DNA of 24,449 nt from Nitrospirota bacterium (GTDB lineage Bacteria; Nitrospirota; UBA9217), in contig JAOUEV010000051.1 in assembly GCA_029858565.1 (NCBI GenBank), forward strand, positions 1 through 24,449, in the 5' to 3' direction. Position numbers and translations under genes: made by a program. The notes under the pieces were generated by a model. It saw nothing but the letters and a program-made list of their open reading frames with translations, had not been told where the DNA came from and did not search any database. Below, in pieces: positions 931 through 20,290 of the stretch (the stretch's first letter is position 1; each line of letters starts with the position of its first letter).

Positions 931-1896
931 TCACTTCTTTTTTCCCAGGACCAGAACAGTATCCCCAAGTCGTTTGGTCTTGATGCCTGAGCAACCGGCT
1001 TCCCTGAGCCATGAACCGATCTCCCGGGCTGTGTAAGAGCGTCCTTCGCTGGTGTTCACCACCATGTTCACCGAAAAAAGCGCGCCCGGGAGTGGGCCTG
1101 CGCGATCGTCATCAAGGGAAAATTCATGGACCGCGATCGTCCCGCCCGGCGCGAGTGCCTCGAACGTTTTAGCGAGAAGCGCACGATTCTCCAGGGGGCC
1201 ATGGGAATGGAGTATCTGGCTGAGCAGGACCAGGTCATAGGGGCCGCCGATATCGTCGAAATGGAAGTCTCCTCCGCGGAACGAGATCTTTTTCGCTCCT
1301 GCGGTCCGCACGATCTCGCGGGCCACGTCAATAGTATTGGGAAGGTCGAAGAGCGTGACCGCGATGCCTTTCTTTGCCAGGGCGATGCTGTACGTGCCCG
1401 GACCTCCCCCAAGGTCCAGCGCCTGTCGCACTCCGCGCAGATCGAGCGCAGAGATGACCTGCCGGACCCGGGGCAGAGCGTTATTATGCATGGCCCTGAT
1501 GAAGACATCGTGATCCCGCTCGCCGGTCCTGTTCGGCATCCCGGAACGTACCACCTCATCGAGCCCGGACCAGCTCTTCCAGAGGGTGTCCGCGTGTCGC
1601 AGCATGTCGCCTTGATAGGCCGGACTCCCGGGAAGGAGGAATTGTTTTGCAAGCGGGGTAAGGCTGTAGGTCACTTTTTGTTTTTTCAGCAAGCCCAGTG
1701 CTGCCAGAGCGTCGAGCAGTATCTCCGTGGCCCGGAGGTCGGTCCTGAGCACCGAAGCAAGGCCGGAAGCGGATGTTCCTGCTCCGACCTGCTCGAATAT
1801 CCGCAGATTGTTCGCGGTCAGGAGAACACGAGATGCGCGGAATCCTCCCCAAAGCTGTGCAAAAGCCGCAGCGGCATCGTGTTTTGCTCTTTTCAT
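931..1896 (-). CDS. SAM-dependent O-methyltransferase (Methyltransf_2 family with N-terminal dimerisation domain)
   Basis: LDLGGGPG SAM motif, LFDLP, GDF, YDLVLLSQILH; N-terminal LLDALAALGLL dimerisation helix; GGGAG RBS; ATGA overlap with the upstream gene. Confidence 0.9.
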   Translation of the reverse strand: MKRAKHDAAAAFAQLWGGFRASRVLLTANNLRIFEQVGAGTSASGLASVLRTDLRATEILLDALAALGLLKKQKVTYSLTPLAKQFLLPGSPAYQGDMLRHADTLWKSWSGLDEVVRSGMPNRTGERDHDVFIRAMHNNALPRVRQVISALDLRGVRQALDLGGGPGTYSIALAKKGIAVTLFDLPNTIDVAREIVRTAGAKKISFRGGDFHFDDIGGPYDLVLLSQILHSHGPLENRALLAKTFEALAPGGTIAVHEFSLDDDRAGPLPGALFSVNMVVNTSEGRSYTAREIGSWLREAGCSGIKTKRLGDTVLVLGKKK

Positions 1897-2300
1897 TGCT
1901 TCGCTCCCTTCAGTTGATCGTAGCAGGCCATGATTTGCTCAAGCGCAGCGGTAAGGGCGCGCGCTTGTTTTTGCGGTCCTGTGGACAGCTCAAGCAGCAA
2001 CGGACCGCAAAAGAACCAGGTGCACCTCCAGGCGCGCTGCCAGCGCGGTTTTGTGCATCCTGTTCGCCCGAGGAACTGGCATGCGTTGTCCAACGGCCAG
2101 GAAGGATCGTGGCTTGGCACTTCCTCTCCCAGCACGGCAAGATAGGCCCGGTCCGCTTCCGTGAACGCGCCGTGGCGCTGCTTGCAGCAGACCTCGGCAC
2201 AGTCCGGACAGACGCGGCTGGTATACTCTTCGATGAGCGGCGAGCACTCTATCAGCAGCCGTTTCAGCTCCTGGGCGATGGCAGGGGCGTTCTTGCTCAT
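1893..2300 (-). CDS. Cysteine-cluster protein (YkgJ/CxxCxxCC-like, putative Fe-S or Zn binding), 135 aa
   Basis: Start is likely ATG 2300 (ATGA overlap with the upstream stop). Motifs CPDCAEVCC...CQFLGRTGC...RAWRCTWFFC. The 271-aa ORF-track version has an implausible N-terminal extension that overlaps another gene. Confidence 0.75.
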   Translation of the reverse strand: MSKNAPAIAQELKRLLIECSPLIEEYTSRVCPDCAEVCCKQRHGAFTEADRAYLAVLGEEVPSHDPSWPLDNACQFLGRTGCTKPRWQRAWRCTWFFCGPLLLELSTGPQKQARALTAALEQIMACYDQLKGAKQ

Positions 2301-2581
2301 GGCGAGAGACGCTCCCCGCAGTGCCGGCACGTTGACGGCACGCAACAGGACCAGGAGAAAATCTCGAAGCCCAGGAATCTCCGCGGACGGAGCAGTACCG
2401 GCATGCGGCAGGCGGGGCAGCGAAAGAGGAATGCGGCGACAGCGTAAAGGATGGTGCTTACGGCAAGATATCCGATCAGTAGCAGTTCGCCGGCCTGAAA
2501 GCTCCAGACGCACCAGCCGATCAGGAAATAGACCGCGAGCCAGATGATCAGGATGCCGTTGTATCGGGAGCGTCTGTCCAT
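2297..2581 (-). CDS. Small membrane protein with two TM helices and a C-terminal zinc-ribbon (CPAC...CC...CRHC)
   Basis: Two hydrophobic segments, then paired CxxC motifs; stop overlaps the next ATG (ATGA); no clear RBS. Confidence 0.7.
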   Translation of the reverse strand: MDRRSRYNGILIIWLAVYFLIGWCVWSFQAGELLLIGYLAVSTILYAVAAFLFRCPACRMPVLLRPRRFLGFEIFSWSCCVPSTCRHCGERLSP

Positions 2582-2704
2582 AGGTGAGGGAAAAAGATAA
2601 TCGCTGACGGCAGGATACCGTAAGGAAGGAGGAAAAGCAAGATGAAGACAACGTTGTGAAGACAGTGTGAAACCGCTGGACCTTTCTGAGACCGGGAATA
2701 ATAG

Positions 2705-3478
2705 TCACTTCATTTTGTCATAGGCGATCAGGGCCGCACCCAGCGCGCCGGTGACCTGGGGATCAGACGGGATCTGGAGCCTGACACCGGTCTCCTGTTC
2801 GATCGCCCTTGCCACGCCCGCATTCTTCGCTACACCTCCGGTAAAGACCACATCCTTCTGGAGACCCACCTTTCCGGTCATGGCGAGTGTTCGTTTCGCG
2901 ACCGAGCGGAACACGCCGCGCAATACCACATCTACCGGCGTCCCGCTCTGGGTCAGGCCGATGATCTCAGATTCAGCGAACACGGCGCACATGGAGGAGA
3001 TCTCCCGCGCTTCCGAGGAGTTTTCCGTGAGCTGTCCCATGTTATCGAGCGGAACGTCGAGCATCAAGCCCACCATCTCGATGAACTTGCCCGTGCCTGC
3101 GGCGCAGCGGTCGTTCATCACGAAGTTCATGACCTTGCCGTTCCCGTCAACGCTGATCATCTTCGAGTCCTGGCCGCCGATGTCGATGACCGTGCGGGCC
3201 TGCGGGAACACGTAGGCGACCCCGCGAGCGTGGCAGAGGATCTCCGACGACACGGCGTCAGCTTCTCGGAAGTAGTTCCTGCCATAACCCGTTGCGATCA
3301 CTTTTACCACATCGGACCGCCTGGCGCCGGCCGCAAGCATAGCGTCGAAGAACGCTTTTTTCGCATTCTCCGCAGGCGCGGCGCCGCTTATTGCGGTGAT
3401 CGCCTCTACGATCTGGCCGCCGTCGTACAGCACGACCTCGATGGAACGGGAACCGATATCAACGCCGGCCGTCAGCAT
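2705..3478 (-). CDS. ATP-dependent [4Fe-4S] activator (HgdC/BadF-G/YjiL/DCCP-R type archerase)
   Basis: GVDIGSRS, ATGYGR, SEILCHARG, IDIGGQDSK, MNDRCAAGTGKF, SSMCAVFAESE, FTGGVAKN, GALGAAL. ATG 3478 follows an AGGAG RBS and is preferred over TTG 3493. Confidence 0.93.
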   Translation of the reverse strand: MLTAGVDIGSRSIEVVLYDGGQIVEAITAISGAAPAENAKKAFFDAMLAAGARRSDVVKVIATGYGRNYFREADAVSSEILCHARGVAYVFPQARTVIDIGGQDSKMISVDGNGKVMNFVMNDRCAAGTGKFIEMVGLMLDVPLDNMGQLTENSSEAREISSMCAVFAESEIIGLTQSGTPVDVVLRGVFRSVAKRTLAMTGKVGLQKDVVFTGGVAKNAGVARAIEQETGVRLQIPSDPQVTGALGAALIAYDKMK

Positions 3479-3492
3479 AAAACTCCTAAACA

Positions 3493-3569
3493 AGGATTGC
3501 AGGATCAGAGAATTATAGGATTAAAGGTAGCACCAACCCGAATCCTTACTCCTGTAATCCTTTAATCCC
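3493..3569. repeat. Intergenic imperfect palindrome built from 8-nt units (AGGATTNN) on both arms; REP-like
   Basis: Left arm AGGATTGC-AGGATCAG-AGAATTAT-AGGATTAA; the right arm reverse-complements to GGGATTAA-AGGATTAC-AGGAGTA-AGGATT. Confidence 0.6.
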
Positions 3570-3573
3570 GATT

Positions 3574-4671
3574 CTAAAGCATCTCTATCAGCGTCTGCAC
3601 TCGCACCTTGATCCGTTCGCGGTCCGAGTCCGAATAATCCGTCTCGACCTTCATGTACGGCATTCCGAGCTTCTCGCGCACGAACCGGTCGATCAGGAAC
3701 GATTCCACATTATAGGTATGGCATGCCTGCCATACCAGGTCGATGACCGCCTGCACCTTGAACTCCTTCGCGAGCTTTCCGATCAGCGCTTCGCGCCCCT
3801 TGTTCGGCGTCATGCAGGAGCAGGGGAGCTGGAAGTACTTTCGTGCGATGGCCTCGACAGGATCGCCGGTCTCATCGACCTGGATATCAAGGGGTTTCAT
3901 GCCCGAGCAGGTCTCCTGCACCACGACAACGGCTCCGCATTCCTCGATCACTTCGATCAGCTTGGTCGTGCCCTGGGCTGTTGGGCAGCCGGTGATCATG
4001 ATGCGGGGAGCGCCTTTCTTCGCAGCGAACTTGCCGTGCTTCTTCCGGTCCCGCGCCTCTGCCATGAATGCTTCGAGCATGCGCAGATGGACCGGGTCCC
4101 CGGCAACGCGGTAGCGAAGCTCAGCAAGCTCCATTCCGGTTACTATCGCCGGGTCCTCCTTGCCGAGCTCGAAGGCCGAGCGCAAAAGGCTCCGTTCGTG
4201 GTTCATGTCTTTGATCGCTTTCCGGAGGTCGTCGTCGGTTATGGTGCGGTTGAAAGTCTTTTCCAGCTTCTTCCGGAGCTTTCCGACCTCGGAAACCCAG
4301 TGGGAAAAAGCCTCTTGTTCCTCGAACTTCTGGGTCAATTCCAGAATATGGACCGGTTGCTTTTCAGCGAGGAGCTCGTACATCTTTTTCTTGCCGTCGC
4401 AGGTGGTCTCCGCCACCACGAGGTCCGCGACCATCAGGAAGGGACAGCGGTTCGTGACAATGTACCCGAAGGAGGACTTGATCAGGGGACAGAGGTTCGA
4501 AGGCAGCACGGTCTCGGCCGGCGGGATCGTCCGGTTGCTCGCTCCGCAGAGACAGACCGGCACCGCGTTCGCGGCCAGGATCAGCTCGCGAGGAGTGAAC
4601 TCACAGTAGATGCCCACAACGCCTTTACCCCGGCGCCTGGCGTCGCGCACCAGGTCCACCTCATGGTTCAT
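3574..4671 (-). CDS. Double-cubane [8Fe-9S] cluster protein (DCCP/YjiM-like, 2-hydroxyacyl-CoA dehydratase family); probably the C-terminal half of a Sec read-through fusion 6171->3574
   Basis: GIYCEFTP, VCLCG, NLCPLIKS, ETTCDGKKKMYE, ITGCP, ETCSG, PCSCMTPN, QACHTYNVES, VETDYS...RVQTLIEML. No Shine-Dalgarno before ATG 4671, and the frame stays open back to the UGA at 4747-4749. Confidence 0.88.
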   Translation of the reverse strand: MNHEVDLVRDARRRGKGVVGIYCEFTPRELILAANAVPVCLCGASNRTIPPAETVLPSNLCPLIKSSFGYIVTNRCPFLMVADLVVAETTCDGKKKMYELLAEKQPVHILELTQKFEEQEAFSHWVSEVGKLRKKLEKTFNRTITDDDLRKAIKDMNHERSLLRSAFELGKEDPAIVTGMELAELRYRVAGDPVHLRMLEAFMAEARDRKKHGKFAAKKGAPRIMITGCPTAQGTTKLIEVIEECGAVVVVQETCSGMKPLDIQVDETGDPVEAIARKYFQLPCSCMTPNKGREALIGKLAKEFKVQAVIDLVWQACHTYNVESFLIDRFVREKLGMPYMKVETDYSDSDRERIKVRVQTLIEML

Positions 4672-4720
4672 GGAATTGCGGAAGTGGTCCGCAGGTGAAT
4701 TGCATGTTACGCGGGGCAGT

Positions 4721-4749
4721 TCGCCGACCGGCGAGGAAACCGGCGTTCA
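4721..4749 (-). promoter_or_regulatory. In-frame UGA plus putative bacterial SECIS hairpin
   Basis: UGA-ACGCCGGUUUCC-UCGCC-GGUC-GGCGA: 12-nt spacer, 5-bp stem, GGUC loop. Confidence 0.7.
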
Positions 4750-6171
4750 GCCGGGTTTCCTGCGCTGCTTCAGCATGTCCATGAAACCCTCCATTCTGTT
4801 CACGACCTGTGCGCTCAAACGGCCCGGAGAGTAGGGCACATCAAAGGACAGGACCGGAATGTTCAATTCCTTTGACACTATTTCGGTGATGGCTTTTTCA
4901 TCGAATGCGCAATGACTGGCGCCGGAGATGCCCGAGATGATCACGCCTTCGGCACCGTACTTCTTCGCGCCTTCGACGATCCTGCGCGCCCGGAACCCGG
5001 CGGAACCTGTCATGGGATCGTCCATGCAGTTCTCGGCAACGGCATCGAAAGGATGTCTGTCAGTAGCGATCGGGAAAAAGGCGTGGCTGATCATGTATTC
5101 GGTGCCGGCAATGCACCCGCCCAGGTCCTCGAGCAGAGTGATGAGCGCGGCATCTGTCGGCGGAGTTGCCCAAAAGATCCGTAAGGGGTCAGGGGTCAGG
5201 GGTGAGGCGTTCAAGCTCAGGCGATGCTTCACCGTTGCAAGCAGGTCATCGAGCACGCAGACGGCTTCGTCCGGGTCGGAGCATGCATGGGGGGCGATGA
5301 ACTCGGCCAGGAGCATCTCAAGTCCGGGGAGGGGCGGCTGCTTTGCGCCGTACACGAGATCTCGCAGCTCCGACACCTTGCTCCGGATGATGTTGAATTT
5401 GTCGCGGCTCTGTTCGAGCATTGCGTCCGTGACCGGAATGCCGCTTACTTCCTCCAGCCGCTTTACCACACCCTTCAACTGGCCTGCCACGAAGTCTCGA
5501 CCGGACCGCTGGTAAGGAGAACCCCCGGGCGAATGCAGGAAGGCCTCCTTGATTATCGGCGATGTCGGCTCGAACCGGACCGCCATCTCCCACCAGTGCG
5601 TGGGGAAGCCTTCAGCCTCGATCAACTGCATGACCGCGGAAAAATCATCGCAGCAGGCGCCTACGCCTGCGATACAGAGGTCGGGCCGGGGGAAGTAGTC
5701 AAGGGTCTTCATGGCGCCGAGAGCTGCCCGGACAAAACAGAGCTCCTCGCCCGCGCCGAGCTTTGCAGCTTCATCGAGCAGGTGTGATTCCTCTGCAAAG
5801 CAGGGCGCCCACCAGAGCTCGTCAGCGTAAAAAGTGAGCGAATCAGGCACCGCATAGCTCAGCACCGGCACTGGTCCCAGGTCCTTCATGGCAGCAAATA
5901 TCTTCCAGCCCTTTTCCTTGGCAAGGAACAGGCGGTCCTTTTCGCTGAAGATAAAGGCCCAGAGACGCAGGGCTGCGAGCGAACTGTCGAACTTGAGCCG
6001 TCGCAGCAGAGTGTCGCCGCGGCAGGAGTACTCGTAGGGACTGAAGAGATAACGAACGCCTCCAGGCACGAGGCTGCGCAGGAACATGCAGCTGGCCCGG
6101 TACGCCTCGGGCACCTGCGGCATCCGCTCTTCCCATTCCATGACGGAGATCTTTTTTACGTCGTTGAACAT
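4747..6171 (-). CDS. 2-hydroxyacyl-CoA dehydratase/benzoyl-CoA reductase-family subunit (divergent); N-terminal half of the predicted 865-aa selenoprotein
   Basis: Family-like motifs AKEKGWKIF, ELCFVRA, GACCDDF, QLKGVVKRLEEVSGIPVTDAML, AKKYGAEGVI, SHCAFD, LNIPVLSFDVPYS...RMEGFMDML; ends in UGA in frame with the downstream DCCP. Confidence 0.82.
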   Translation of the reverse strand: MFNDVKKISVMEWEERMPQVPEAYRASCMFLRSLVPGGVRYLFSPYEYSCRGDTLLRRLKFDSSLAALRLWAFIFSEKDRLFLAKEKGWKIFAAMKDLGPVPVLSYAVPDSLTFYADELWWAPCFAEESHLLDEAAKLGAGEELCFVRAALGAMKTLDYFPRPDLCIAGVGACCDDFSAVMQLIEAEGFPTHWWEMAVRFEPTSPIIKEAFLHSPGGSPYQRSGRDFVAGQLKGVVKRLEEVSGIPVTDAMLEQSRDKFNIIRSKVSELRDLVYGAKQPPLPGLEMLLAEFIAPHACSDPDEAVCVLDDLLATVKHRLSLNASPLTPDPLRIFWATPPTDAALITLLEDLGGCIAGTEYMISHAFFPIATDRHPFDAVAENCMDDPMTGSAGFRARRIVEGAKKYGAEGVIISGISGASHCAFDEKAITEIVSKELNIPVLSFDVPYSPGRLSAQVVNRMEGFMDMLKQRRKPG

Positions 6172-6194
6172 AAGTCAGAACAGTGTCAAATTAG

Positions 6195-7298
6195 CTATTC
6201 CATCATTTCCACGAATGCGTCGATCCGGCTCAAAAGCCGTTCCCGTCCACCCTCTGCATAATCCGAATCGAACACCAGCACTGGCAGGTCAAAGTTCTTG
6301 CGCATGCGCTCCCGTTCTGCGTACCAGTGATCGCAGAACTTGAGGCATTTGACCACAAGGCCCGCGGGCTTACTATCCTTGATTGTTTCCGCGATGCGGT
6401 CGTAGACCGCGCGGTTTGGCCGTGAGCGTGCGCAGGGTGGTTGATGGAATGACCGAAGAGTCAGATTTTTCACGAGGTCATCCTGTGTCTCGTGAGGGGT
6501 TCCATTCTCGACAGCGCTTAGACCAGTGCAGTTAAGCGGCAGGACCGCATAGCCCCGAGCTTCCAGGTCTTCGAGCAGCACGGTATCTTCGTATGCAAGC
6601 GGACTGCCGGTCAGAAGAATGGTCTTCCTGCTCTCAAAGACCGGAGATTTTGCCAGCAAATCTTCGAAAAAGCCGGCCAGTCCCTGCGGACGGGCGACGA
6701 AGAAAAGGTGGAACATGCTGTGGAGATCCAGCGGCGATACTCGGCCGGATCGTGCGGCACGGGCAAGAACACCGGCCGCGGCATCACTGTCCCGCTGCCA
6801 GGTTGCCGCACGCGCAGGATCGAACCGAACGGCGTGGCGGATCTCGAGTTCCGCTGCGATCCGCTGTATCTGGTCAGCATAGTAATCAGCCGACGACCTC
6901 GTCCTGGTCGCCGGGAGCTGGACCGGGTGGACATTCTGACCAAGTGTTCCCGCGAGCGTGTCCATGCCCCTTCGCATGGCATCGCAGGTAAAAAGCCCGA
7001 TCCAGATATCTATTTTCCCATGGGGTCCGCGCTTCTTGCTCACATTGCCCAGCAGTGTCTTGACGAGGGGACAGATATCGGGTCGTACGATCCGCTCTCC
7101 GTCGCTTTCCGCGTCTGAGGATGCTCCGCAGATCACACGGATGGGACGCATTCCCAAACCAGCGATGACCGCGGCTGGGAACGCGTGACAGGTATGGCCA
7201 ACGATCTTGATGCCAGCGGTCCTGTCGCTCTGAATTGAATCCATCTCAGCAGTGAGGCGTGAATCGCAGGCAGTGCGGATTATTGTGGACCCTGTCAT
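6195..7298 (-). CDS. 2-hydroxyacyl-CoA dehydratase-family (HgdB/BcrC-like) subunit; N-terminus possibly encoded by 7295-7414 in another frame
   Basis: IVGHTCHAFP, DICPLVK, FTCDAMRR, LTGSP, LNCTG, PPCAR, LKFCDHW, LPVLVFDSDY...RIDAFVEM; no Shine-Dalgarno before ATG 7298. Confidence 0.85.
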   Translation of the reverse strand: MTGSTIIRTACDSRLTAEMDSIQSDRTAGIKIVGHTCHAFPAAVIAGLGMRPIRVICGASSDAESDGERIVRPDICPLVKTLLGNVSKKRGPHGKIDIWIGLFTCDAMRRGMDTLAGTLGQNVHPVQLPATRTRSSADYYADQIQRIAAELEIRHAVRFDPARAATWQRDSDAAAGVLARAARSGRVSPLDLHSMFHLFFVARPQGLAGFFEDLLAKSPVFESRKTILLTGSPLAYEDTVLLEDLEARGYAVLPLNCTGLSAVENGTPHETQDDLVKNLTLRSFHQPPCARSRPNRAVYDRIAETIKDSKPAGLVVKCLKFCDHWYAERERMRKNFDLPVLVFDSDYAEGGRERLLSRIDAFVEMME

Positions 7299-7414
7299 GT
7301 TATGAAGCTGCCGCCGAGGTCATCGTGTACGCGAAGGAATGCATGATCTCGGCGTTTCTCATGCATCCTGTGCAGGATCTCGCGGTGATCGATATGGTGC
7401 ACGTTGGGCATCAT
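7295..7414 (-). CDS. 39-codon His-rich ORF, or the frameshifted N-terminal part of the 6195-7298 gene
   Basis: MMPNVHHIDHREILHRMHEKRRDHAFLRVHDDLGGSFIT; ATGA overlaps at both ends; resembles the N-terminus of the 4747-6171 protein (V..I...E...RM, FLR, GG). Confidence 0.55.
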   Translation of the reverse strand: MMPNVHHIDHREILHRMHEKRRDHAFLRVHDDLGGSFIT

Positions 7415-8211
7415 TTTTTCACGCCAACAATCCTGGTCCTGCCGAAGGCGCCTTCTTTTGCCTTCTGGAGCATAAATCCCATCTCGCCGCCCATGGCCTG
7501 CATCAGGTTCATATCCCACCCGATGATGCGCAGGGCGTCGAAGGTGAGCTGTTTGGTCAGCATGTCGATGTAGAACTGGATATAGTCCGCGAACTCCGGG
7601 GTCATGTCTTCGGACACCGTGACCTCGAAGCCGTGCTTATTGAGCAGGGACTCGTAGCCTTTCTGGCTTTCCATGTAGGGGAACTTCATGAAGCGATTGA
7701 TGCGTTCGGCATCCTTGTCGGCAAGGCCTTTCGGCCCTTCGACCCAGTCGGTGAAAGCGATGGTGCCTCCCTTTTTTAAAACCCGTGATGCCTCGCTGAT
7801 CTGTTTATCCTTGTCCGCAACATAGCACCATGCATCCTCGCCCCAGACCACGTCAAAGGTATTGCTGTCCCAGGGAATGGTCGTAACGTCGCCGAGCTTG
7901 AACTCTATGGAGCCGTTAAAGCCGCCACGCTCTGCCCGTTTCTTCGCTTCCTCGACCATATGCGCTGTGCCGTCGAGGCCATAACCCTTCACCTGGAAGT
8001 TCTTCACCAGGAACCGGAGACCCGCGCCGAGCGCGCTGCAGAGGTCAAGGACCTTCTGGTCCTTTTTGATGCCCGCTTTCTGGGCCAGGGCCATGGACGA
8101 GGCGAACCCGCCCACATGGATCTGTTCGCCCATGATCATTTCCCAGAGCCGGCCTTCCGGACCTGAGTAGACGGCATTCACATCCTTCAACGTGATATCC
8201 AGTCTCTTCAT
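7411..8211 (-). CDS. Class I SAM-dependent methyltransferase (sarcosine/tocopherol methyltransferase-like)
   Basis: GEQIHVGG, VLDLCSALGAG (motif I variant), GDVTTIPWDSNTFDVVW, RVLKKGG; AAGGA RBS. Confidence 0.9.
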   Translation of the reverse strand: MKRLDITLKDVNAVYSGPEGRLWEMIMGEQIHVGGFASSMALAQKAGIKKDQKVLDLCSALGAGLRFLVKNFQVKGYGLDGTAHMVEEAKKRAERGGFNGSIEFKLGDVTTIPWDSNTFDVVWGEDAWCYVADKDKQISEASRVLKKGGTIAFTDWVEGPKGLADKDAERINRFMKFPYMESQKGYESLLNKHGFEVTVSEDMTPEFADYIQFYIDMLTKQLTFDALRIIGWDMNLMQAMGGEMGFMLQKAKEGAFGRTRIVGVKK

Positions 8212-8257
8212 GTCGGTCCTTTCATGATGAATTGAGATCGAGCAGCCAGTGCGGTCG

Positions 8258-8362
8258 CTAGGCGCTGATCAACAGTAATGCTGATACCGCGAGCGTTGTG
8301 AGAAACCCTGTGAACAGAGCGATTCGGATAATGCGCATGGTGACCTCGAAACGATACAGCAT
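8258..8362 (-). CDS. 34-aa single-pass membrane peptide
   Basis: AAGGAGG RBS, then MLYRFEVTMRIIRIALFTGFLTTLAVSALLLISA-TAG; fills the gap between the MerT-like and methyltransferase genes. Confidence 0.6.
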   Translation of the reverse strand: MLYRFEVTMRIIRIALFTGFLTTLAVSALLLISA

Positions 8363-8399
8363 GGGAGACCTCCTTGGAGCAGGGTGTATGGATAGCCGC

Positions 8400-8786
8400 C
8401 TAGGGCGCGGCCCTGAGATTCTTGATGATCGAGAACGTGGTCAGCATGAGGCTCATGCCAGCCACGATCCAGAGTGTTACCTTCGTTTTTATGCCTACAT
8501 CGCCCTTGTGCTTGAAATAGATTCGGTAGAACGATGTGGCCAGCAGGGTGAAGGTGAACGCGTACAGGAAATAGCGATACTTCACGAACCAAGCCCCGAA
8601 GGCGACGCTTCCCAGGCCAAGACCGGCCAGGATGATGTTCATGTTTCAGAGGATGATCGTTACGACGGCCGAGCCCATGGCACCCTTGGCTGAGCCGATA
8701 CTGCCTTTGCCGGGCAGGGGACAGACCTGTCCGGTTGGAAATGCCTCTTTGGATGGTGACTTTGGCGTGAATTTGAGCTGGTTCAT
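8400..8786 (-). CDS. MerT-like membrane transporter, predicted selenoprotein (128 aa, Sec47)
   Basis: GGAGG RBS and ATG 8786: MNQLKFTPKSPSKEAFPTGQVCPLPGKGSIGSAKGAMGSAVVTIIL-UGA-NMNIILAGLGLGSVAFGAWFVKYRYFLYAFTFTLLATSFYRIYFK... Three TM segments, with the UGA at about the position of the MerT TM1 Cys pair, followed by a SECIS-like hairpin. Confidence 0.8.
8610..8648 (-). promoter_or_regulatory. In-frame UGA plus putative SECIS hairpin
   Basis: UGA-13 nt-UCCU-GGCC-GGUCUU-GGCC-U-GGGA; the loop starts with GGUC 21 nt after the UGA. Confidence 0.7.
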
Positions 8787-8818
8787 GATCCTCCCCTGTG
8801 GAATGCTGAATGATCACT

Positions 8819-8862
8819 ATTATCAGACAGGTGGAAAGGGAAGTCTAATCGTGATTCTTTAT
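8819..8862 (-). promoter_or_regulatory. Putative sigma70 promoter of the left operon with an adjacent LysR-type T-N11-A box
   Basis: Minus strand TAGACT(8847-8842)-17 nt-GATAAT(8824-8819); ATCG-N7-TTAT (8848-8862) abuts the -35. Confidence 0.45.
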
Positions 8863-8930
8863 AGGATGGAGGGGAAGGTGCGGGAAAAATTTATAGGTCC
8901 GGTTCGATAGATTCAAGAAAAGACTCTTTT

Positions 8931-9011
8931 GCCACAGAGGTCGCAGAGGACGCTAGAGAAATGACCTGGTCAGAAAGATAACATCTCAGTGCTTTCCGTG
9001 TTCTCTGTGGC
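8931..9011. repeat. REP-like imperfect palindrome with about 9-nt periodic arms, downstream of the LysR gene
   Basis: GCCACAGAG-GTCGCAGAG-GACGCTAGAGA ... TCTCAGTG-CTTTCCGTG-TTCTCTGTGGC; the outer 9 bp are perfectly inverted. Confidence 0.65.
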
Positions 9012-9037
9012 CGAGTTCAATTCTGATATTGTCGATC

Positions 9038-9931
9038 TTATGCAGAGGGCAGTCGTTCAGAGAGGAACTGGACAAAGACGCGATAGTGTCCCGGAATAGG
9101 TCGGTTCTTTCTGCAAATAATGTGGAAATTCCGCTTCATGCGTACGCCGGTGATCTTTATTTCTTCGACCAGGCCCGCCTTGAGATCGTCCTTCACCACG
9201 AATCGCGAGAGGATCGTTGCGCCGAGTCCCGCCTTGACTGCCTCGCGGAGCGAGTCGGGCGATCCGAGGATCGCCTTGATGTTCAGCGCTTTCATGCTGA
9301 TCTTGTGCAGAAGATGCTGTTTTTCCATGCTGGCGCGGGAATCCGATCCCTCTTCGCGCATCAGAAGTGGGATCGAGAAAAGCTTGAGCGGTGATATCGA
9401 CCTTTTGCCGACAAATCCCGGTTTTGCAACAAGGATCAGTTCATCCTTGAAGGTATGAATCCGTTCTATGTCACCGGCGCTCCGCGGGTCGTCGACGATA
9501 CCCAGCTGAAGATCTCCGGAGGTCACCTGTTCGATGATCTTGCGGGAGTCAGCAATGGTGACCTGGAAAAAGACCTCGGGATATTGCCTGCTGAATTCAG
9601 CGGCAAGGGGAGGGATGACGTAGGAGCCGGGAACGGCCGCGGCGCCGACGGTAATGAGACCCCGCACGGCCTTTTCCGAAGAAAGGAGATCGTTCTTGAT
9701 GTCCTTGAGCCGTTCCATCAGGTCCTCTGCGCGGTTGAAGAGCAATGTGCCTTCCTTCGTGGGGATCGTCTTTCGACCAACGCGATCAAAGAGCTGTATG
9801 CTCAGTTCCTCTTCCAGCTTCTTTACGTGCATGCTGACAGACGGTTGGGTGAGGTGCAGTTCCCGGGAGGCAATGGAAAAACTCCGGTTGCGATAGACTG
9901 AAAGGAAAACTTTGAGCTGATAGATATCCAT
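9038..9931 (-). CDS. LysR-family transcriptional regulator, CysL-like substrate-binding domain
   Basis: HTH MDIYQLKVF...SFSIASRELHLTQPSVSMHVKKLEEELSIQLFDR; PGSYVIP, REEGSDSR, AVKAGLG; GGAG RBS before ATG 9931. Confidence 0.92.
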   Translation of the reverse strand: MDIYQLKVFLSVYRNRSFSIASRELHLTQPSVSMHVKKLEEELSIQLFDRVGRKTIPTKEGTLLFNRAEDLMERLKDIKNDLLSSEKAVRGLITVGAAAVPGSYVIPPLAAEFSRQYPEVFFQVTIADSRKIIEQVTSGDLQLGIVDDPRSAGDIERIHTFKDELILVAKPGFVGKRSISPLKLFSIPLLMREEGSDSRASMEKQHLLHKISMKALNIKAILGSPDSLREAVKAGLGATILSRFVVKDDLKAGLVEEIKITGVRMKRNFHIICRKNRPIPGHYRVFVQFLSERLPSA

Positions 9932-10088
9932 AGCGGTTCTCCAGCCTCTGTTCTGTGGTGGCTTCCTGGTCGACAAGATCAACCACCATGGTCATACTAC
10001 AGTATCAGGGCTTTCGCAGTCAACAGAACCTCGCAAACAACGGCCTTTCTTCTGGAAAAAAACAGGCGTCTTGGTTATACTATTCATC

Positions 10089-10868
10089 ATGACCGAACAA
10101 AAAAGGGAACATTGCGCCCAGTGCGGAACTCAACTGCAGTATCTCACGGCTGCTGTGGACGCTAGATGCACATCCTGTGGCAAGATCTTCCGGTCTCATA
10201 TTACCTGCCCCGAGAACCACGTACTGTGCGACGCCTGTCATGGTAAAGAGGCCCGAAAAATGATCTGGGAACTGGTCAGTACAGACCAGGCAAGGGACCC
10301 GCTCGAGGCGGCGGAGCGAATGATGGCCCATCCGGCAGTCCCGATGCTCTCCTGCGATCACGCGTTCATCGCTGCGGGCGCGCTTCTGACGGCCCTCCAG
10401 AACTCTCCCTGTGGGAAAATGACGGAAAAGGACAGGAAGGAGGTCTTTGACCGCATCGAGGAACAGGCCAGGGGAGGGTATTGTGCTCTTACCGGCGTCT
10501 GCGGCATTGTTCCCGCCATTGGCGCTGTCTTCTCGGTCTTCCTCGGTGCCCGATGCGGAAGCGACCGGGAGCAGCGGATCGTGATGGATGCGGCAACCAG
10601 GACCATGCGGGCGATCACCGAGCTCACCGGACCGAGCTGCTGCAAGGCTTACGTGCGTACTTCGATCGCAGTTGCATCAGAGGTCTTTGCGGAGACCCTG
10701 GGAATCGCTCTTCCTTTGGGGCGCGCCAAGCCAGTCTGCGATCACGCGGAACGGCATCCGCATGGATGCAGGGAAGAGCTCTGTCCGTACTATCGGAAAC
10801 CGTCCAAGGACATCTTTGCAGAAGCCAAATGGGTCCCCGGTATAGCCTGTACTACCTGACGTCCCTAA
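10089..10868 (+). CDS. Cys-rich DUF5714-like protein; predicted C-terminal CTTU-RP selenoprotein (ends at 10859 if the UGA is a stop)
   Basis: CAQCG, CTSCG, CPENHVLCDACH, PMLSCDHAF, GGYCALTGVCG, GPSCCK, CREELCPYY; tail GIACTT-UGA-CGU-CCC-UAA followed by a hairpin. TATACT 7 nt before the ATG suggests a leaderless start. Confidence 0.78.
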
Positions 10869-10905
10869 AGGCCATCCCGGCGGGATGGCACGCGACAAAG
10901 GGATG
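10857..10905 (+). promoter_or_regulatory. UGA plus putative SECIS hairpin (alternatively a terminator between convergent genes)
   Basis: UGA-11 nt-GCCAUCCC-GGC-GGGAUGGC (8 perfect bp); lower stem CGUCCCU/AGGGAUG; no poly-U tract on the + strand. Confidence 0.6.
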
Positions 10906-10921
10906 AACGTGTCTTGTTCTT

Positions 10922-11341
10922 CTACTCCTGAACTATCCTGTAGCTGTGGAAAATCTGTCCTGCTTTTGCTAGCGTTGCTCCCACGGAGCAATACTTTCCC
11001 AAGGACAGTTCAATGGCACGCTTTACGGCATCAGGTTGGACCGATTTGCCTTTTACCACGTATTCAATATGTATTTCCCGATAGATCTTTGGATAATCAT
11101 CGGACTTCTCTCCGCGGATGTTCATTTCGAGCCCGCTAATGTCCTGACGTTTCTTTCGCAGGATGGAAATAACATCCATTCCTGTGCAGCCGCCAAATCC
11201 AACGAGCAGAAGCTCCATGGGACGAAAACCGGCGTTCCCACCGCCGGACGCATCGTCTGCATCCATTTCCAACCTGTGACCTGAGTCCGCCGATCCGCTG
11301 AACTGCATATTCTTGACTAAGTGAACAGTTGCATGGACCAT
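10922..11341 (-). CDS. OsmC/YhfA-family protein
   Basis: GFRPMELLLVGFGGCTGMDVISIL...KYCSV (two conserved Cys); GGAGG RBS. Confidence 0.92.
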   Translation of the reverse strand: MVHATVHLVKNMQFSGSADSGHRLEMDADDASGGGNAGFRPMELLLVGFGGCTGMDVISILRKKRQDISGLEMNIRGEKSDDYPKIYREIHIEYVVKGKSVQPDAVKRAIELSLGKYCSVGATLAKAGQIFHSYRIVQE

Positions 11342-11447
11342 AAATACAACCTCCCTGTGATGGACTATTGCGATACACGCCGATCATATTAACATACTTG
11401 AACAATCACTTATCAATAGTTTTTCATGATGCGAGCATTTATAAACT

Positions 11448-11652
11448 TTGGCATATTGGCCAAAACATGCGTTATCGTTGTTTTGTAAATAAAAGCAATT
11501 ATAAACAGTGCGTTGAATAATTATGAGGCAGATACGTTGGTAAAATTACCAATATAATAGCTAAATCTCATGGTTTATGTTTTATTTAACATTATGATTA
11601 TTAACTGAATTATTGTTCTGCAATTTAGTATTAAATTGGCAACCTATTTGCA
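11448..11652 (+). promoter_or_regulatory. Putative sigma54 promoter with upstream activator palindromes and an IHF-like site
   Basis: TTGGCAACCTATTTGCA (11636-11652, GG-N10-GC); TTGG-N8-CCAA palindromes at 11537-11552 and 11448-11463; IHF-like AATCATAATGTTA on the minus strand at 11587-11599. Confidence 0.6.
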
Positions 11653-11753
11653 CAAGAATTATAGTATGTTTCGATTAATTAAGTTGTAACTATTACGAAT
11701 AGTTACGAATACATTTCAGCTATCATGTTTATGGGTTGATAAATTTTTCTTAT

Positions 11754-11784
11754 TTGACAAAAAGGGCTATTTGCTGAATATTCT
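11754..11784 (+). promoter_or_regulatory. Putative sigma70 promoter upstream of dsrA
   Basis: Perfect TTGACA at 11754, then AATATT at 17 nt or TATTCT at 19 nt spacing. Confidence 0.4.
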
Positions 11785-12157
11785 ACTACCTCGCACCAGT
11801 CTCAGAAACGGACTCTCGTTCTTCCTTGCAGTACGGCAATACCCGGTATCTGCTTCACATCTGTCCTGATATAGTCGCAATTAAGTTCAGTGTTTTCCGA
11901 ATTACCGCAAACAAGAGTTGTCCTGGTGATTTGTTCTTGGCCAGGTTTTCAACAGTAAAGATCCATTGTCATGAAAGGGGGACAGATCACCACATCATCA
12001 ACCCTGGGAAGGATATGCGGTAGATCTCCAGATAATTCCTTCCAAAAACGCAGGTACCTTGACGAAGTTGAGCAGCCGACGTTGGTCGTTTCCGGATTTT
12101 GTCGTTGATCATTAGCTTTACACACGTTTAAGAACAATTCCATAAGGAGGGTTCCAC

Positions 12158-13336: not shown

Positions 13337-13378
13337 TGATCTCACAAGAGAGAAAAATTTCAAGGAGGAATACCTAGA

Positions 13379-14452
13379 ATGGCCGACAAACCAAAGAGAA
13401 TAACTGACCTTGGTTCACCTGACTATAAAAAATTCCTGCCTCCCGCGATCGCGAAGAACTACGGGAAGTGGAAATATCATGAACAGCTTGGCAAGGGCGT
13501 GATGAAGCACGTTTCCGAGACCGGCGACGAACTGTACACCGTGCGTATTGCCACGCCCCGACTGGTAAGCACGGACTACATCCGTGAGATGTGCGATATC
13601 GCCGAGAAGTTCTGCGGCGGTTTCCTCCGCTGGACGACCCGCCACAACGTGGAGTTCTTTCCGGCGAAGGACCAGGTTGACGCCCTCACGGCAGACCTCA
13701 AGAAGCGCGGTCACCTGGTCGGCGGCATCGGTTACGGCATCAGCAACGTGGTGCATACCCAGGGCTGGATCCACTGCCACACGCCTGCCACTGACGCCTC
13801 GGGCGTGGTGAAGGCGGTCATGGACGAACTGCATGAGTACTTCACGACGAAGAGCTTGCCGGCACGCGTGCGCATCGCGCTTGCCTGCTGCCTGAATATG
13901 TGCGGCGCCGTGCATTGCTCCGACATCGCCATCCTCGGCATTCATCGCCTGCCTCCCAAGGTGAACGAGGCGACGCTTGCGAACCAGTGCGAGATCCCGA
14001 CGACCATCGCGTCGTGCCCCACGGGCGCCATCAGCCCGAACCCGGCCACGAAGTCGGTGAAGATCAAGGCCGAGCGCTGCATGTACTGCGGCAACTGCTA
14101 CACCATGTGCCCGTCCCTCCCGATCGCAGACGGCTCCGGCGACGGCATCTCGATCTATGTGGGCGGCAAGGTTTCCAATGCCCGCGGCCCGGCGCGGATG
14201 TCCAAGCTGGTCATCCCGTTCCTGCCGAACAACCCGCCGCGCTGGCCCGAGACCGTGAAGGCTGTGAAGCACCTCGTCGAAGTCTATGCCGCGAACGCAA
14301 AGAAGCATGAGCGCATGGGCGAGTGGATCGAGCGGATCGGCTGGGAGCGTTTCTTCAAGCTCACCGGCATTCCGTTCACCTATCAGCATATCGACGACTT
14401 CACTTTTGCCCGTGACACGTTCCGCATGACCCCCACCTTCAAGTGGGAGTAG
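13379..14452 (+). CDS. dsrB: Dissimilatory sulfite reductase beta subunit
   Basis: [71 protein letters not shown]. Confidence 0.99.
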
Positions 14453-14469
14453 GAGTAGCTATTTAGGAG

Positions 14470-14506
14470 ACCGGCCTCCCGAGTATGATGCGGGAGGCCG
14501 GTTTTT
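14470..14506 (+). terminator. Terminator-like hairpin between dsrB and dsrD
   Basis: ACCGGCCTCCCG-9 nt-CGGGAGGCCGGT followed by TTTT. Confidence 0.7.
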
Positions 14507-14540
14507 GCTCCACACTATCCGAATCAAGGGGGACACTATC

Positions 14541-20288: not shown

Positions 20289-20290
20289 TC

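What the first reader, a model, noticed from the sequence alone, without database searches (positions are those of the whole stretch)
931..10905. Candidate selenoprotein-rich system: Sec-MerT-like transporter, methyltransferases and an ATP-driven double-cubane reductase beside the dsr cluster
Seen: three in-frame UGA codons (8646, 4747, 10857), each followed by a hairpin whose loop begins GG (GGUCUU, GGUC, GGC) 21, 17 and 19 nt downstream, and each giving a more sensible protein when read through. The genes are co-oriented behind a CysL-like LysR regulator: MerT-like, membrane peptide, methyltransferase, three dehydratase/DCCP modules, activator, two Cys-rich proteins and an O-methyltransferase, plus a divergent DUF5714-like gene. 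Established: bacterial SECIS elements lie just 3' of the UGA with a G early in the apical loop (E. coli fdhF has GGUC at that position); DCCP/DCCP-R pairs perform ATP-dependent low-potential reductions of unknown physiological substrate; MerT moves Hg(II) via TM1 thiols. Inference: a selenium-dependent pathway that imports, reduces and/or methylates a soft metal(loid) or organo-chalcogen compound. I do not know this gene combination as a described system, and the substrate cannot be read from the sequence.
Basis: partly seen in the sequence, partly recalled or inferred. Interest (0 to 1): 0.92.

Follow-up and report, generated by a model that had tools for sequence, protein, structure and literature searches.

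The report
Three selenoproteins around a double-cubane reductase
Three stop-like UGA codons in this sulfur-bacterium gene cluster are almost certainly read as selenocysteine, one of them inside an ATP-driven iron-sulfur reductase, which ties this puzzling enzyme class physically to selenium.

Summary
All three UGAs (8646-8648, 4747-4749 on the minus strand; 10857-10859 on the plus strand) are conserved, in-frame TGA codons in orthologues. Each is followed at a fixed distance by a hairpin whose loop starts GG. The genome has selA, selB, tRNA-Sec and two selD genes.

- **MerT-like protein:** a divergent MerT-superfamily membrane protein. Its Sec aligns with the second Cys of the MerT "CC" pair.
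- **Fused reductase:** a two-module HGD-D~double-cubane (DCCP) polypeptide of 865 aa, with Sec in a flexible interdomain linker. Eight of 8 forms with a stop there use TGA, stay in frame and carry a GGU(C/U)-loop hairpin. Close relatives have Cys, more distant ones other residues.
- **DUF5714 protein:** ends in a tail C-x-x-U-[K/R]-P. All 37 alignments reaching that residue contain TGA.

The conserved core is methyltransferase, DCCP-like subunit, fused subunit, activase and MerT-like protein. The regulator is the selenium-associated LysR type, not CysL.

The substrate remains unknown. Selenium or metalloid handling is the best guess. MerT-family selenoproteins and the DUF5714 relative MbdU are known. 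I found no record of the DCCP-linked Sec.

The parts
9038..9982 (-). LysR-family regulator of the selenium-metabolism-associated subfamily (LysR_Se), upstream of and co-oriented with the operon
   Evidence: Pfam HTH_1 + LysR_substrate. NF040786 scores 252.5 bits against a cut-off of 250. A 69%-identical homologue lies upstream of the same cluster in L038.
8400..8786 (-). MerT-superfamily membrane selenoprotein, 128 aa, Sec at residue 47 in the first hydrophobic segment; a conserved Cys lies at residue 22
   Evidence: Translation. A strong ribosome-binding site, GGGGAGGATC, precedes the ATG at 8786. NF033560 merT_RC607 scores 31 bits, below its cut-off. The TGA is aligned in 6 of 6 homologues. 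In a profile search, 134 of 150 best hits carry CC at this site, and 8 of 10 hits scanned pass the Pfam MerT cut-off.
8646..8648 (-). Sec codon (UGA) of the MerT-like protein
8611..8631 (-). SECIS-like hairpin CCUGGCC-GGUCUU-GGCCUGGG; the loop starts 21 nt after the UGA
   Evidence: The same hairpin folds in L038 and L040 and a similar one in L039. L022 has a compensatory A-U pair. L041 is weak (loop AGUUUA).
8258..8362 (-).
   Evidence: ORF listing only; conservation not tested
7411..8211 (-). SAM-dependent methyltransferase, 266 aa; its TGA is an ordinary stop
   Evidence: Pfam Methyltransf_31/11/25. NF045667 (DVU_1556 family) scores 78 bits, below its cut-off. The best solved relatives are phosphoethanolamine N-methyltransferases. 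Orthologues are 76-83% identical in 4 Nitrospirota loci. The stop is not conserved as TGA.
6195..7298 (-). HGD-D family subunit, 367 aa, DCCP-like with seven Cys in similar spacing
   Evidence: PF06050. NF040772 scores 134 bits, below its cut-off. Cys at 37/57/76/105/257/289/322.
3574..6171 (-). Fused selenoprotein of 865 aa: a divergent HGD-D module (1-474), Sec475, a 25-residue linker, and a DCCP module with the full 7-Cys motif
   Evidence: Translation. Two HGD-D stretches. NF040772 scores 451 bits. PDB 6eno/7yyl score 234 bits. About 70 fused homologues of about 865 aa exist. The AlphaFold model has mean pLDDT 86.9, and its only segment below 50 is 473-490.
4747..4749 (-). Sec codon (UGA) in the interdomain linker
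4721..4734 (-). SECIS-like hairpin UCGCC-GGUC-GGCGA (encodes S-P-V-G); the loop starts 17 nt after the UGA
   Evidence: It is present in 8 of 8 TGA forms and absent in 6 of 6 forms with a sense codon. L083 has the compensatory pair UCACC/GGUGA.
2705..3493 (-). ATP-dependent activase / DCCP reductase (BcrAD_BadFG, HgdC-like)
   Evidence: PF01869 scores 186 bits. TIGR00241 scores 244 bits. Orthologues are 70-82% identical in 4 loci.
2297..2581 (-). 94-aa Cys-rich predicted membrane protein; not found at the other loci
   Evidence: ORF. No family match. No tblastn match in L038-L047.
1893..2300 (-). 135-aa Cys-rich protein (C-x2-C-x3-CC); loosely associated with the cluster
   Evidence: No family match. 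A homologue lies 7 kb from the cluster in L038 and next to DUF5714 in L073.
931..1896 (-). O-methyltransferase with dimerisation domain; found only at this locus
   Evidence: PF00891 + PF08100. No match in L038-L047.
10089..10868 (+). DUF5714 selenoprotein with a flexible C-terminal tail C-T-T-U-R-P (the start may be TTG at 10071)
   Evidence: PF18978 scores 150 bits. NF045648 MbdU scores 324 bits against a cut-off of 600. For the tail and TGA. In the model the tail has pLDDT below 50.
10857..10859 (+). Sec codon (UGA), three codons before the TAA stop
10871..10889 (+). SECIS-like hairpin GCCAUCCC-GGC-GGGAUGGC in the 3' untranslated stretch
   Evidence: A homologous hairpin (consensus CCGUCC-GGUC-GGACGG) is present in 27 of 27 loci, in 21 distinct versions, with G-C/A-U/U-A exchanges. 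The terminator scan did not flag it.

Best explanation
What it is. The window holds three genuine selenoprotein genes around an operon for an ATP-driven double-cubane (DCCP-type) reductase. The operon probably answers to selenium through a LysR_Se regulator.

Shown by sequence comparison. Each UGA is followed by a SelB-type SECIS hairpin with a GG-starting loop about 20 nt downstream, and each is conserved as TGA in orthologues. The organism has the machinery to insert Sec. Read this way, the operon encodes:
- a three-helix MerT-superfamily membrane protein whose Sec replaces the second Cys of the metal-binding CC pair;
- a SAM methyltransferase;
- a DCCP-like subunit;
- an 865-aa fusion of a divergent HGD-D module and a canonical DCCP module, joined by a disordered linker that carries Sec475 and, 16 residues on, a Cys;
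- the HgdC-like ATPase that injects low-potential electrons.
The divergent neighbour is a Cys-rich DUF5714 protein with a flexible C-x-x-U-R-P tail.

Inferred mechanism. The selenol in the membrane helix takes up a soft, thiophilic substrate. The linker Sec/Cys arm (and perhaps the DUF5714 tail) hands it on by Se-S/Se-X exchange to the [8Fe-9S]-type cluster. There ATP-driven electrons reduce it, and the methyltransferase modifies the substrate or product.

Likely substrate class. I rate a chalcogen or metalloid species, selenium first, at about 0.4. Arsenic or mercury get about 0.15 and an organic substrate about 0.25.
For: Sec machinery: selB 389 bits and selA 604 bits on contig C101, two selD genes each with an in-frame TGA, and tRNA-Sec with anticodon TCA.

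MerT-like protein:
- TGA is aligned in 6 of 6 homologues.
- The ribosome-binding site lies before the upstream ATG.
- The database holds only 76-80-aa fragments that begin after the TGA (10 of 10 hits).
- The profile search puts U at the second C of CC in 134 of 150 hits. Eight of 10 hits scanned pass the Pfam MerT cut-off.

Fusion:
- G056 has the same frame, one TGA and 77% identity.
- Eight of 8 TGA forms are in frame with a GGU(C/U) hairpin. None of 6 sense-codon forms has it.
- Cys stands at the aligned site in 12 database homologues and in L041.
- Seven database proteins end right after the RR motif.
- The linker is the only disordered segment of the model.

DUF5714:
- 120 of 120 listed homologues end 0-3 residues after the last Cys, 114 of them exactly two residues after it.
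- All 37 genome alignments reaching residue 263 contain TGA.
- The tail reads U-[K/R/T]-[P/S] and the hairpin is present in 27 of 27 loci.

Enzyme: NF040772 451 bits, the 7-Cys motif, PDB 6eno, and the activase.

Selenium link:
- LysR_Se scores 252.5 bits.
- LysR_Se is reported next to 'dehydratase' and sel genes (passages of PMC5322559).
- 955 of 970 DCCPs lie in SelD genomes (bioRxiv 10.1101/2022.07.06.499078, section 24).

Cluster conservation: the core is present in 4 other Nitrospirota loci.
Against: - No experiment shows Sec insertion.
- The linker site is not conserved across the wider family. Of 68 fused homologues with a parsed linker, 46 have no Cys in it at all, and V/I/A/S/T are common at the aligned place. 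The linker Sec therefore cannot be essential to the chemistry of the family.
- No Cys form of the DUF5714 tail was seen. More distant stand-alone members simply lack the tail.
- The hairpins of the MerT-like gene and the fusion lie in coding sequence (LAGLGLG and SPVG), so RNA and protein constraints are confounded there.
- The methyltransferase looks like small-amine N-methyltransferases rather than metalloid methyltransferases.
- The window's MerT-like protein lacks the loop Cys that its orthologues have and scores far below MerT cut-offs.
- No mer, ars or sel structural gene lies in the window.
- DUF5714 sits beside this cluster only here. A MerT-like gene lies next to an MbdU-type gene in G033.
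- The LysR_Se score is only just above its cut-off.
Confidence: 0.62

Rival explanations
1. The linker UGA is mainly a regulatory gate. With selenium, SelB reads it and the ribosome goes on to make the DCCP module. Without selenium, translation stops after the N-terminal module. Synthesis of the catalytic module would thus be coupled to selenium supply, and the selenol itself would matter little.
For: - The site lies in a disordered, poorly conserved linker.
- 46 of 68 fused homologues have no Cys in the linker.
- No Shine-Dalgarno-like sequence precedes the ATG at 4671.
- The regulator is of the selenium-associated type.
- DCCPs co-occur with SelD.
Against: - The nearest sense-codon relatives have Cys exactly at the site (12 database homologues and L041). 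That is the usual sign of a chemically used Sec.
- All three genome-derived U forms (window, L039, L040) keep a second Cys 10-16 residues downstream.
- Several other genes here also lack an obvious ribosome-binding site, so its absence is weak evidence.
Confidence: 0.15
2. It is a mercury or arsenic handling system. The MerT-like protein imports Hg(II) or As(III). DUF5714 and the linker arm bind it through Cys/Sec. The methyltransferase and reductase transform it, for detoxification or methylation.
For: - The Sec sits at the MerT CC site.
- DUF5714 carries an invariant vicinal CC and many invariant Cys.
- In other genomes DUF5714 is fused to the same Sec modules that NCBIfam records on arsenite methyltransferases: DUF2284, and AhpD plus a UxPK tail.
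- An ESM Atlas cluster of 313 members joins DUF5714 to an LMWPc domain, which I recall as the fold of ArsC-type arsenate reductases. This is a lead only.
- The methyltransferase has a weak ArsM-core match of 64 bits.
Against: - No merA, merP, merR, arsR, arsB/ACR3 or arsC was detected among the window's proteins scanned.
- The regulator is LysR_Se.
- The best structural relatives of the methyltransferase are N-methyltransferases.
- A very low-potential ATP-driven reductase is not needed for Hg(II) or As(V) reduction. This is my own reasoning.
Confidence: 0.13
3. The complex reduces an ordinary but refractory organic compound, as benzoyl-CoA reductases and 2-hydroxyacyl-CoA dehydratases do. The methyltransferase acts on that metabolite. 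The Sec residues only serve redox maintenance or are incidental.
For: - The HGD-D superfamily is otherwise organic chemistry. BzdN, MbdN and HadC appear among the hits.
- The methyltransferase resembles phosphoethanolamine and sarcosine N-methyltransferases.
- Unfused versions of methyltransferase, three HGD-D genes and activase occur without a MerT-like gene in Verrucomicrobiota and Planctomycetota loci.
Against: - The DCCP module is an equivalog-level member of the double-cubane branch, not of the CoA-ester enzymes.
- The MerT-like selenoprotein is kept beside the cluster in all 5 Nitrospirota loci, the window included.
- The regulator is LysR_Se.
Confidence: 0.2
4. The three UGAs are plain stop codons. 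The hairpins are terminators or chance. The split ORFs are separate genes or pseudogene fragments.
For: - TGA is the commonest stop in this genome: 697 of 1449 long open frames.
- The 10871-10889 hairpin lies between convergent genes.
- Rfam found no SECIS family in the window.
Against: - The reading frame and TGA are kept across 8 of 8, 6 of 6 and 37 of 37 orthologues.
- Protein conservation continues on both sides of the codon.
- There are no U-runs after the hairpins.
- The hairpin is present only where the codon is TGA.
- The methyltransferase control behaves differently.
Confidence: 0.03

Closest known systems
Double-cubane cluster protein DCCP with its ATPase DCCP-R (NCBIfam NF040772; PDB 6eno/7yyl, which I recall as the Carboxydothermus hydrogenoformans enzyme of Jeoung and Dobbek 2018)
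   Same: The C-terminal module scores 451 bits, above the cut-off of 350. It has the 7-Cys ligand pattern, matches 6eno at 234 bits, and is encoded next to an HgdC-like activase.
   Different: - Here the DCCP module is fused behind a divergent 474-aa HGD-D module that lacks the motif.
- A Sec-bearing linker joins the two modules.
- A further DCCP-like subunit accompanies them.
- The described DCCP is, as I recall, a homodimer without Sec.
[quoted passage not shown]
MerT-family selenoproteins: the 'putative mercuric transport protein' with a C/SxxU motif, and the MerT family members with a CU motif
   Same: It is a small three-helix membrane protein with Sec at the MerT thiol site. The G033 homologue even has CU. 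The family is listed in the 2026 review table and in Haft and Gwadz (passages).
   Different: - The window's protein has L-U, not C-U.
- It has no Pfam MerT match at E 0.1 or better, and scores only 31 bits to NF033560 against a cut-off of 130.
- It carries an N-terminal G-x-x-C-P Cys.
- It sits in a DCCP operon rather than a mer operon.
- I could not compare it directly with the published accessions.
MbdU, the metal-binding double selenoprotein (NF045648; Haft and Tolstoy 2025, paper not held)
   Same: It shares the DUF5714 core (324 bits over profile positions 35-272). True MbdU genes occur in the same phylum, at 734 and 743 bits. In G033 one follows a Sec-MerT-like gene.
   Different: - The window's protein lacks the DUF2284 half, and no open N-terminal extension precedes its start.
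- It has a single Sec in a short tail, C-x-x-U-[K/R]-P-stop.
- It scores below the cut-off of 600.
- Public records hold it truncated, three of them (P0134, P0140, P0213) under the NCBI name 'DUF5714 domain-containing protein'.
LysR_Se / DCCP / SelD association and the SAO locus (Lin et al. 2015; Haft and Gwadz 2023)
   Same: A selenium-associated LysR sits next to a 'dehydratase' (DCCP) and an activase. Sec-bearing transport proteins lie beside DCCP genes. The idea of Cys/Sec relays for a soft-atom substrate is shared.
   Different: None of the Sao families appeared among the NCBIfam hits of the proteins scanned. Here the Sec is in the DCCP polypeptide itself. The transporter is MerT-like, not ABC.

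Membership tests
Bacterial SelB/SECIS-dependent selenoprotein gene (all three) | Genome encodes selA, selB, selD and tRNA-Sec | tested here: met
Bacterial SelB/SECIS-dependent selenoprotein gene (all three) | In-frame TGA conserved in orthologues, with protein similarity on both sides | tested here: met
   MerT-like 6 of 6. Fusion 8 of 8 stop-bearing forms. DUF5714 37 of 37 alignments reaching the site; only 2-4 residues follow there.
Bacterial SelB/SECIS-dependent selenoprotein gene (all three) | Hairpin just 3' of the UGA with G in the apical loop | tested here: met
   Loops are GGUC, GGC, GGA or GGUCUU, starting 17-25 nt after the U. No Rfam family matched.
Bacterial SelB/SECIS-dependent selenoprotein gene (all three) | Cys in place of Sec in homologues | tested here: inconclusive
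   Met for the MerT-like protein (CC in 134 of 150 hits). Met for the fusion (Cys in 12 database homologues and L041). Not met for the DUF5714 tail, where no Cys form was seen.
Bacterial SelB/SECIS-dependent selenoprotein gene (all three) | Selenium shown in the protein | not testable with these tools
   Needs 75Se labelling or mass spectrometry.
DCCP (NF040772) | Score above the curated cut-off | tested here: met
   451 bits against 350 for residues 501-865 of the fusion. The other two modules score 134 and 48 bits, below the cut-off.
DCCP (NF040772) | Seven-Cys ligand motif as given by Haft and Gwadz | tested here: met
   using a slightly relaxed regular expression (Cys 23...317 of the module).
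DCCP (NF040772) | Partner HgdC-like ATPase | tested here: met
DCCP (NF040772) | [8Fe-9S] cluster and ATP-dependent reduction | not testable with these tools
   biochemistry needed
MerT (PF02411 / NF033560) | Family model above its cut-off | tested here: not met
   No PF02411 hit at E 0.1 or better. NF033560 scores 31 bits against 130. Homology shows only through a profile search.
MerT (PF02411 / NF033560) | Vicinal thiol pair in the first helix | tested here: inconclusive
   The pair is L-U here and C-U in G033. The U aligns with the second Cys.
MerT (PF02411 / NF033560) | mer operon context (merR, merP, merA) | tested here: not met
   None among the window proteins scanned.
MbdU (NF045648) | Score above 600 bits and a DUF5714 + DUF2284 architecture with two Sec | tested here: not met
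   324 bits, no DUF2284, one Sec.
LysR_Se (NF040786) | Score above the curated cut-off | tested here: met
   252.5 bits against 250, a marginal pass.

The most novel reading that the evidence does not exclude
The operon is a selenium-based relay that feeds a chalcogen or metalloid substrate, selenium itself first, from a Sec in a membrane helix, through a Sec/Cys swinging arm built into the reductase polypeptide, to a double-cubane cluster. The linker UGA at the same time makes synthesis of the catalytic module depend on selenium. This would be the first physical link between DCCP enzymes and selenium. It would explain why DCCP genes are found almost only in SelD genomes, and it would point to their long-sought physiological substrates.
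Probability: 0.25. Interest if true: 0.85.

Novelty: new variant of a known kind. Interest (0 to 1): 0.66.

Why it matters
Double-cubane reductases can reduce very stable small molecules, yet no physiological substrate is known. Their near-exclusive occurrence in selenium-using genomes has been reported only as an unexplained correlation.

A DCCP polypeptide that itself carries selenocysteine turns that correlation into a testable system. It is encoded with a Sec-bearing MerT-like membrane protein and sits behind a selenium-associated regulator. There is a defined operon, defined residues to mutate and a short list of candidate substrates.

The finding also shows that public databases hold at least two of these families only as truncated proteins. 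The DUF5714 tail form is present in 41 of 63 sampled genomes of the window's family. The MerT-like form appears only as 76-80-aa fragments. Selenoproteomes of Nitrospirota are therefore undercounted.

Tried and rejected
- **Rfam scan of the window** (E up to 1): only a chance snoRNA match, no SECIS family.
- **Read-through of the methyltransferase TGA** (a 36-codon Cys-rich extension): rejected. Six of 8 orthologues end in TAA or TAG, the other two in TGA, and no extension is conserved.
- **N-terminal CU extension of DUF5714**, as might be expected for MbdU: no open frame lies upstream of 10071.
- **Foldseek of the DUF5714 model against the PDB**: no match at E 0.001 or better.
- **ESM Atlas by features**: no usable hit. 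By structure, only DUF5714 clusters appeared, one of them fused to LMWPc. This is a lead, not evidence.
- **Neighbourhood of DUF5714**: a first clustering gave '26 loci' for one neighbour. That was an artefact of antisense ORFs. The real SCO1/SenC-like neighbour is in 9 of 30 loci. None of the window's operon genes lies beside DUF5714 in 29 other loci, except the 135-aa Cys-rich protein in L073.
- **Promoter and terminator scan**: nothing decisive.
- **Expression**: no RNA holder was listed.
- **Contigs of four runs laid on 3500-10950**: contigs of X2 and X3 bridge 4747-4749, and one of X2 bridges 8646-8648. No difference at the three codons appears among the 40 rows shown, but 579 rows were not shown, so I draw no conclusion.
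- **Papers not seen**: Haft and Tolstoy 2025 (mSystems), the source of MbdU, is not held. It may already describe DUF5714 tails or related neighbourhoods. Supplementary tables were not opened, so the family lists of BSepDB and of Haft and Gwadz may bear on the novelty claim.
- **Basis of 'not in print'**: 'DUF5714' gave 0 papers. 'Double-cubane' plus 'selenocysteine' gave 5 papers, 2 of them listed. The 2026 review has 0 occurrences of dehydratase, cubane, benzoyl or HgdB.
- **Correction**: an earlier count gave the MerT-like Sec codon as 8646-8644. The right span is 8646-8648.

Full report
**Setting.** The window is contig C132 of a 3.9-Mb, 144-contig genome. Titles of related records place it among Nitrospirota. 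On the minus strand, 9982 to 931 carries, in this order:
- a LysR gene;
- a small membrane protein;
- a methyltransferase;
- three HGD-D family ORFs;
- a BcrAD/HgdC-type activase;
- two Cys-rich ORFs;
- an O-methyltransferase.

A DUF5714 gene diverges on the plus strand. An OsmC gene and a dsrAB-dsrEFH-dsrMK..P region follow.

**The observation.** The distances between UGA and loop (21, 17 and 19 nt) are exact.

**Sec machinery.** selB (389 bits) and selA (604 bits) lie together on C101. Two selD genes each carry an in-frame TGA. A tRNA with anticodon TCA lies on C73.

**MerT-like protein (8400-8786).**
- Read through, the ORF gives 128 residues with U47 at the start of the first hydrophobic stretch.
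- The ATG at 8786 has a strong ribosome-binding site, while the ATG after the TGA has none.
- Homologues in five other loci (L038-L041, L022) all have TGA at the aligned place, in the context [F/L/V][L/V/C]-U-[N/Q]-x-x-x-x-L-A-G-x-G-L-G.
- The large protein database holds only 10 relatives. All are 76-80-aa fragments that begin after the TGA, and no Cys form was found.
- A profile of the six sequences, searched against 1.84 billion representatives, finds 460 proteins. Among the best 150, 134 carry CC with the second Cys in the U column. Of ten hits scanned, eight pass Pfam MerT's cut-off, several with an HMA domain, and two match below it.
- So the protein is a divergent member of the MerT superfamily with Sec at the thiol site. 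It fails the MerT family models themselves.
- The hairpin CCUGGCC-GGUCUU-GGCCUGG recurs in 5 of 6, once with a compensatory A-U pair. It overlaps the conserved LAGLGLG codons.

**Fused reductase subunit (3574-6171).**
- Read-through joins a 474-aa HGD-D module to a 365-aa DCCP module through U475 and 25 further residues.
- In G056, from a different family of the phylum, the same arrangement is 77% identical, in one frame, with one TGA at the same place.
- The protein database holds about 70 fused homologues of about 865 aa, and a set of about 475-aa proteins. Seven of these end just after the conserved RR motif that precedes the site.
- With DNA from genomes and metagenomes I have 14 junctions. 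Eight have a stop, always TGA and always in frame, and all eight have a GGU(C/U)-loop hairpin starting 20 nt (7 cases) or 23 nt (1 case) after the U. L083 has the compensatory pair UCACC/GGUGA.
- The six junctions with a sense codon (C, G, A, S, A and V/A) have no such hairpin.
- The hairpin encodes S/P-P-V-G, which is conserved only in U forms.
- Cys stands at the site in twelve database homologues and in L041. Further away the linker varies: 46 of 68 parsed linkers have no Cys.
- An AlphaFold model (59 sequences, mean pLDDT 86.9) has one disordered segment, 473-490.
- The DCCP module passes NF040772 (451 bits against 350), has the seven-Cys pattern quoted by Haft and Gwadz, and matches PDB 6eno/7yyl. 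The 367-aa subunit has a similar seven-Cys spacing. The 474-aa module does not.

**DUF5714 (10089-10868).**
- All 120 listed database homologues end 0-3 residues after a conserved Cys, and 114 end exactly two residues after it.
- In 401 genomes of the phylum, 58 have the family (41 of 63 in the window's own family). All 37 alignments that reach residue 263 contain a TGA.
- In 27 loci parsed by a motif, the tail reads C-x-x-U, then K-P (22), R-P (3), K-S (1) or T-P (1), then 0-2 further residues and a stop. Two of the three loci missed by the motif show the same tail. One (L068) has S-P-S-U followed at once by TAG.
- All 27 carry a hairpin with consensus CCGUCC-GGUC-GGACGG, in 21 distinct versions with G-C/A-U/U-A exchanges. 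The mean stem is 7.2 bp, against 4.0 bp in shuffles.
- The tail is disordered in the model.
- More distant stand-alone members end right after C-P-Y-F, with any of the three stops. Others are fused to DUF2284 (true MbdU, 734 and 743 bits) or to an AhpD-like C-x-x-U module with a U-T-P-K-stop tail. NCBIfam also records these Sec modules on arsenite methyltransferases.
- The window's protein is thus a single-Sec, tail-only relative of MbdU. It scores below MbdU's cut-off (324 bits against 600).

**Controls.**
- TGA ends 48% of long frames in this genome.
- The methyltransferase TGA with its open extension is not conserved.
- A strict genome-wide search for a GGTC-loop hairpin plus TGA plus an open upstream frame gives 13 sites. 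The fusion site has the longest frames on both sides.

**The cluster.**
- Four other Nitrospirota loci keep methyltransferase, HGD3, fused subunit, activase and MerT-like protein, at 40-84% identity.
- In the phylum sample the fused subunit is rare, found in 3 of 401 genomes.
- Verrucomicrobiota and Planctomycetota loci have the methyltransferase, three HGD-D genes and the activase unfused. No MerT-like gene was detected there with this query.
- The LysR gene is kept in the closest locus (69% identity) and passes the selenium-associated LysR model.
- The O-methyltransferase, the 94-aa ORF and DUF5714 are particular to this locus. In G033, however, a CU-type MerT-like selenoprotein gene is directly followed by an MbdU-type gene.

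**Function.**
- *Shown:* the domain content, the Sec positions and the flexible nature of the two Sec-bearing segments.
- *Established from the literature passages read:* DCCPs reduce small refractory molecules with ATP-driven electrons. They have no known physiological substrate, and 955 of 970 lie in SelD genomes. LysR_Se genes sit next to sel genes and 'dehydratase' genes. DCCP genes appear in clusters proposed for methyl-selenium metabolism.
- *Inferred:* a thiophilic substrate is taken up at the membrane selenol. It is passed along Sec/Cys arms to the cluster, reduced, and methylated before or after reduction.
- Selenium species fit the regulator and the DCCP-SelD link best. Arsenic is suggested by the fusion partners of DUF5714.
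- The methyltransferase's likeness to small-amine N-methyltransferases keeps an organic substrate open.

**Novelty.**
- MerT-family selenoproteins and MbdU are catalogued.
- I found no mention of a selenoprotein in the HGD-D/DCCP superfamily, nor of DUF5714 by that name, in the searches made.
- No NCBIfam model of June 2026 covers the fusion, the tail form or this MerT-like subfamily above its cut-off.
- The key 2025 paper and all supplements were not available to me, so this is 'not found', not 'not published'.

Noticed in passing
window 12158-24351: A dsr region lies here: dsrA and dsrB (NIR_SIR), a CobB/CobQ-like amidotransferase (dsrN-like), DsrH and two DsrE/F-like genes, then DsrM-like (Nitrate_red_gam), DsrK-like (CCG) and NrfD-like genes. 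DsrEFH beside dsrAB is, as I recall, more typical of sulfur oxidisers or disproportionators.
   Followed up: partly
window 11400-12150: An AT-rich stretch (GC 0.40, against 0.54-0.60 elsewhere) lies between OsmC and dsrA. It is presumably the dsr promoter and leader region.
   Followed up: no
G000 contigs C62:41860(-), C97:17041(+), C85:6599(-): The genome-wide scan turned up further in-frame TGA codons followed by GGTC-loop hairpins. One has 135 open codons before it and only 4 after (another C-terminal Sec tail?). These may be more unannotated selenoproteins.
   Followed up: no
L099 (G359:C22) 198-1226: DUF5714 is fused to an AhpD-like module with G-C-Q-P-U and a C-terminal S-T-U-T-P-K-stop tail. 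This is a double-Sec architecture, and its C-terminal part matches the ArsM_AhpD_UU and MduS models.
   Followed up: partly
P0014 and P0255 (database proteins): Both show W exactly where relatives have U: 'NNTW-TAGSLPVGG' at the fusion site and 'FCWQL' in a MerT-like protein. Some gene callers probably read these TGA codons as Trp under another genetic code.
   Followed up: no
L039 12799-14998 and L041 12629-14363: In two relatives the MerT-like selenoprotein gene is followed by CcsA-like (Cytochrom_C_asm) and ResB-like genes. A DsrE-like gene lies nearby in both.
   Followed up: partly
L063, L065, L068, L069, L071, L074-L077 and others: In many genomes of the family the DUF5714 selenoprotein gene lies divergent to an SCO1/SenC-like gene (9 of 30 loci). 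It also lies near heme-copper oxidase subunit I (7 loci), HD-domain (10 loci) and type III polyketide synthase (11 loci) genes. This hints at copper or another metal.
   Followed up: partly
window 7300-7410 (minus strand): The in-frame extension after the methyltransferase TGA reads U-C-P-T-C... and overlaps the start of the next gene. It is not conserved and is best read as chance.
   Followed up: yes
L018, L019 (G000 C3 and C14): There are two selD paralogues, each with an in-frame TGA. Both are likely Sec-containing SelD.
   Followed up: no
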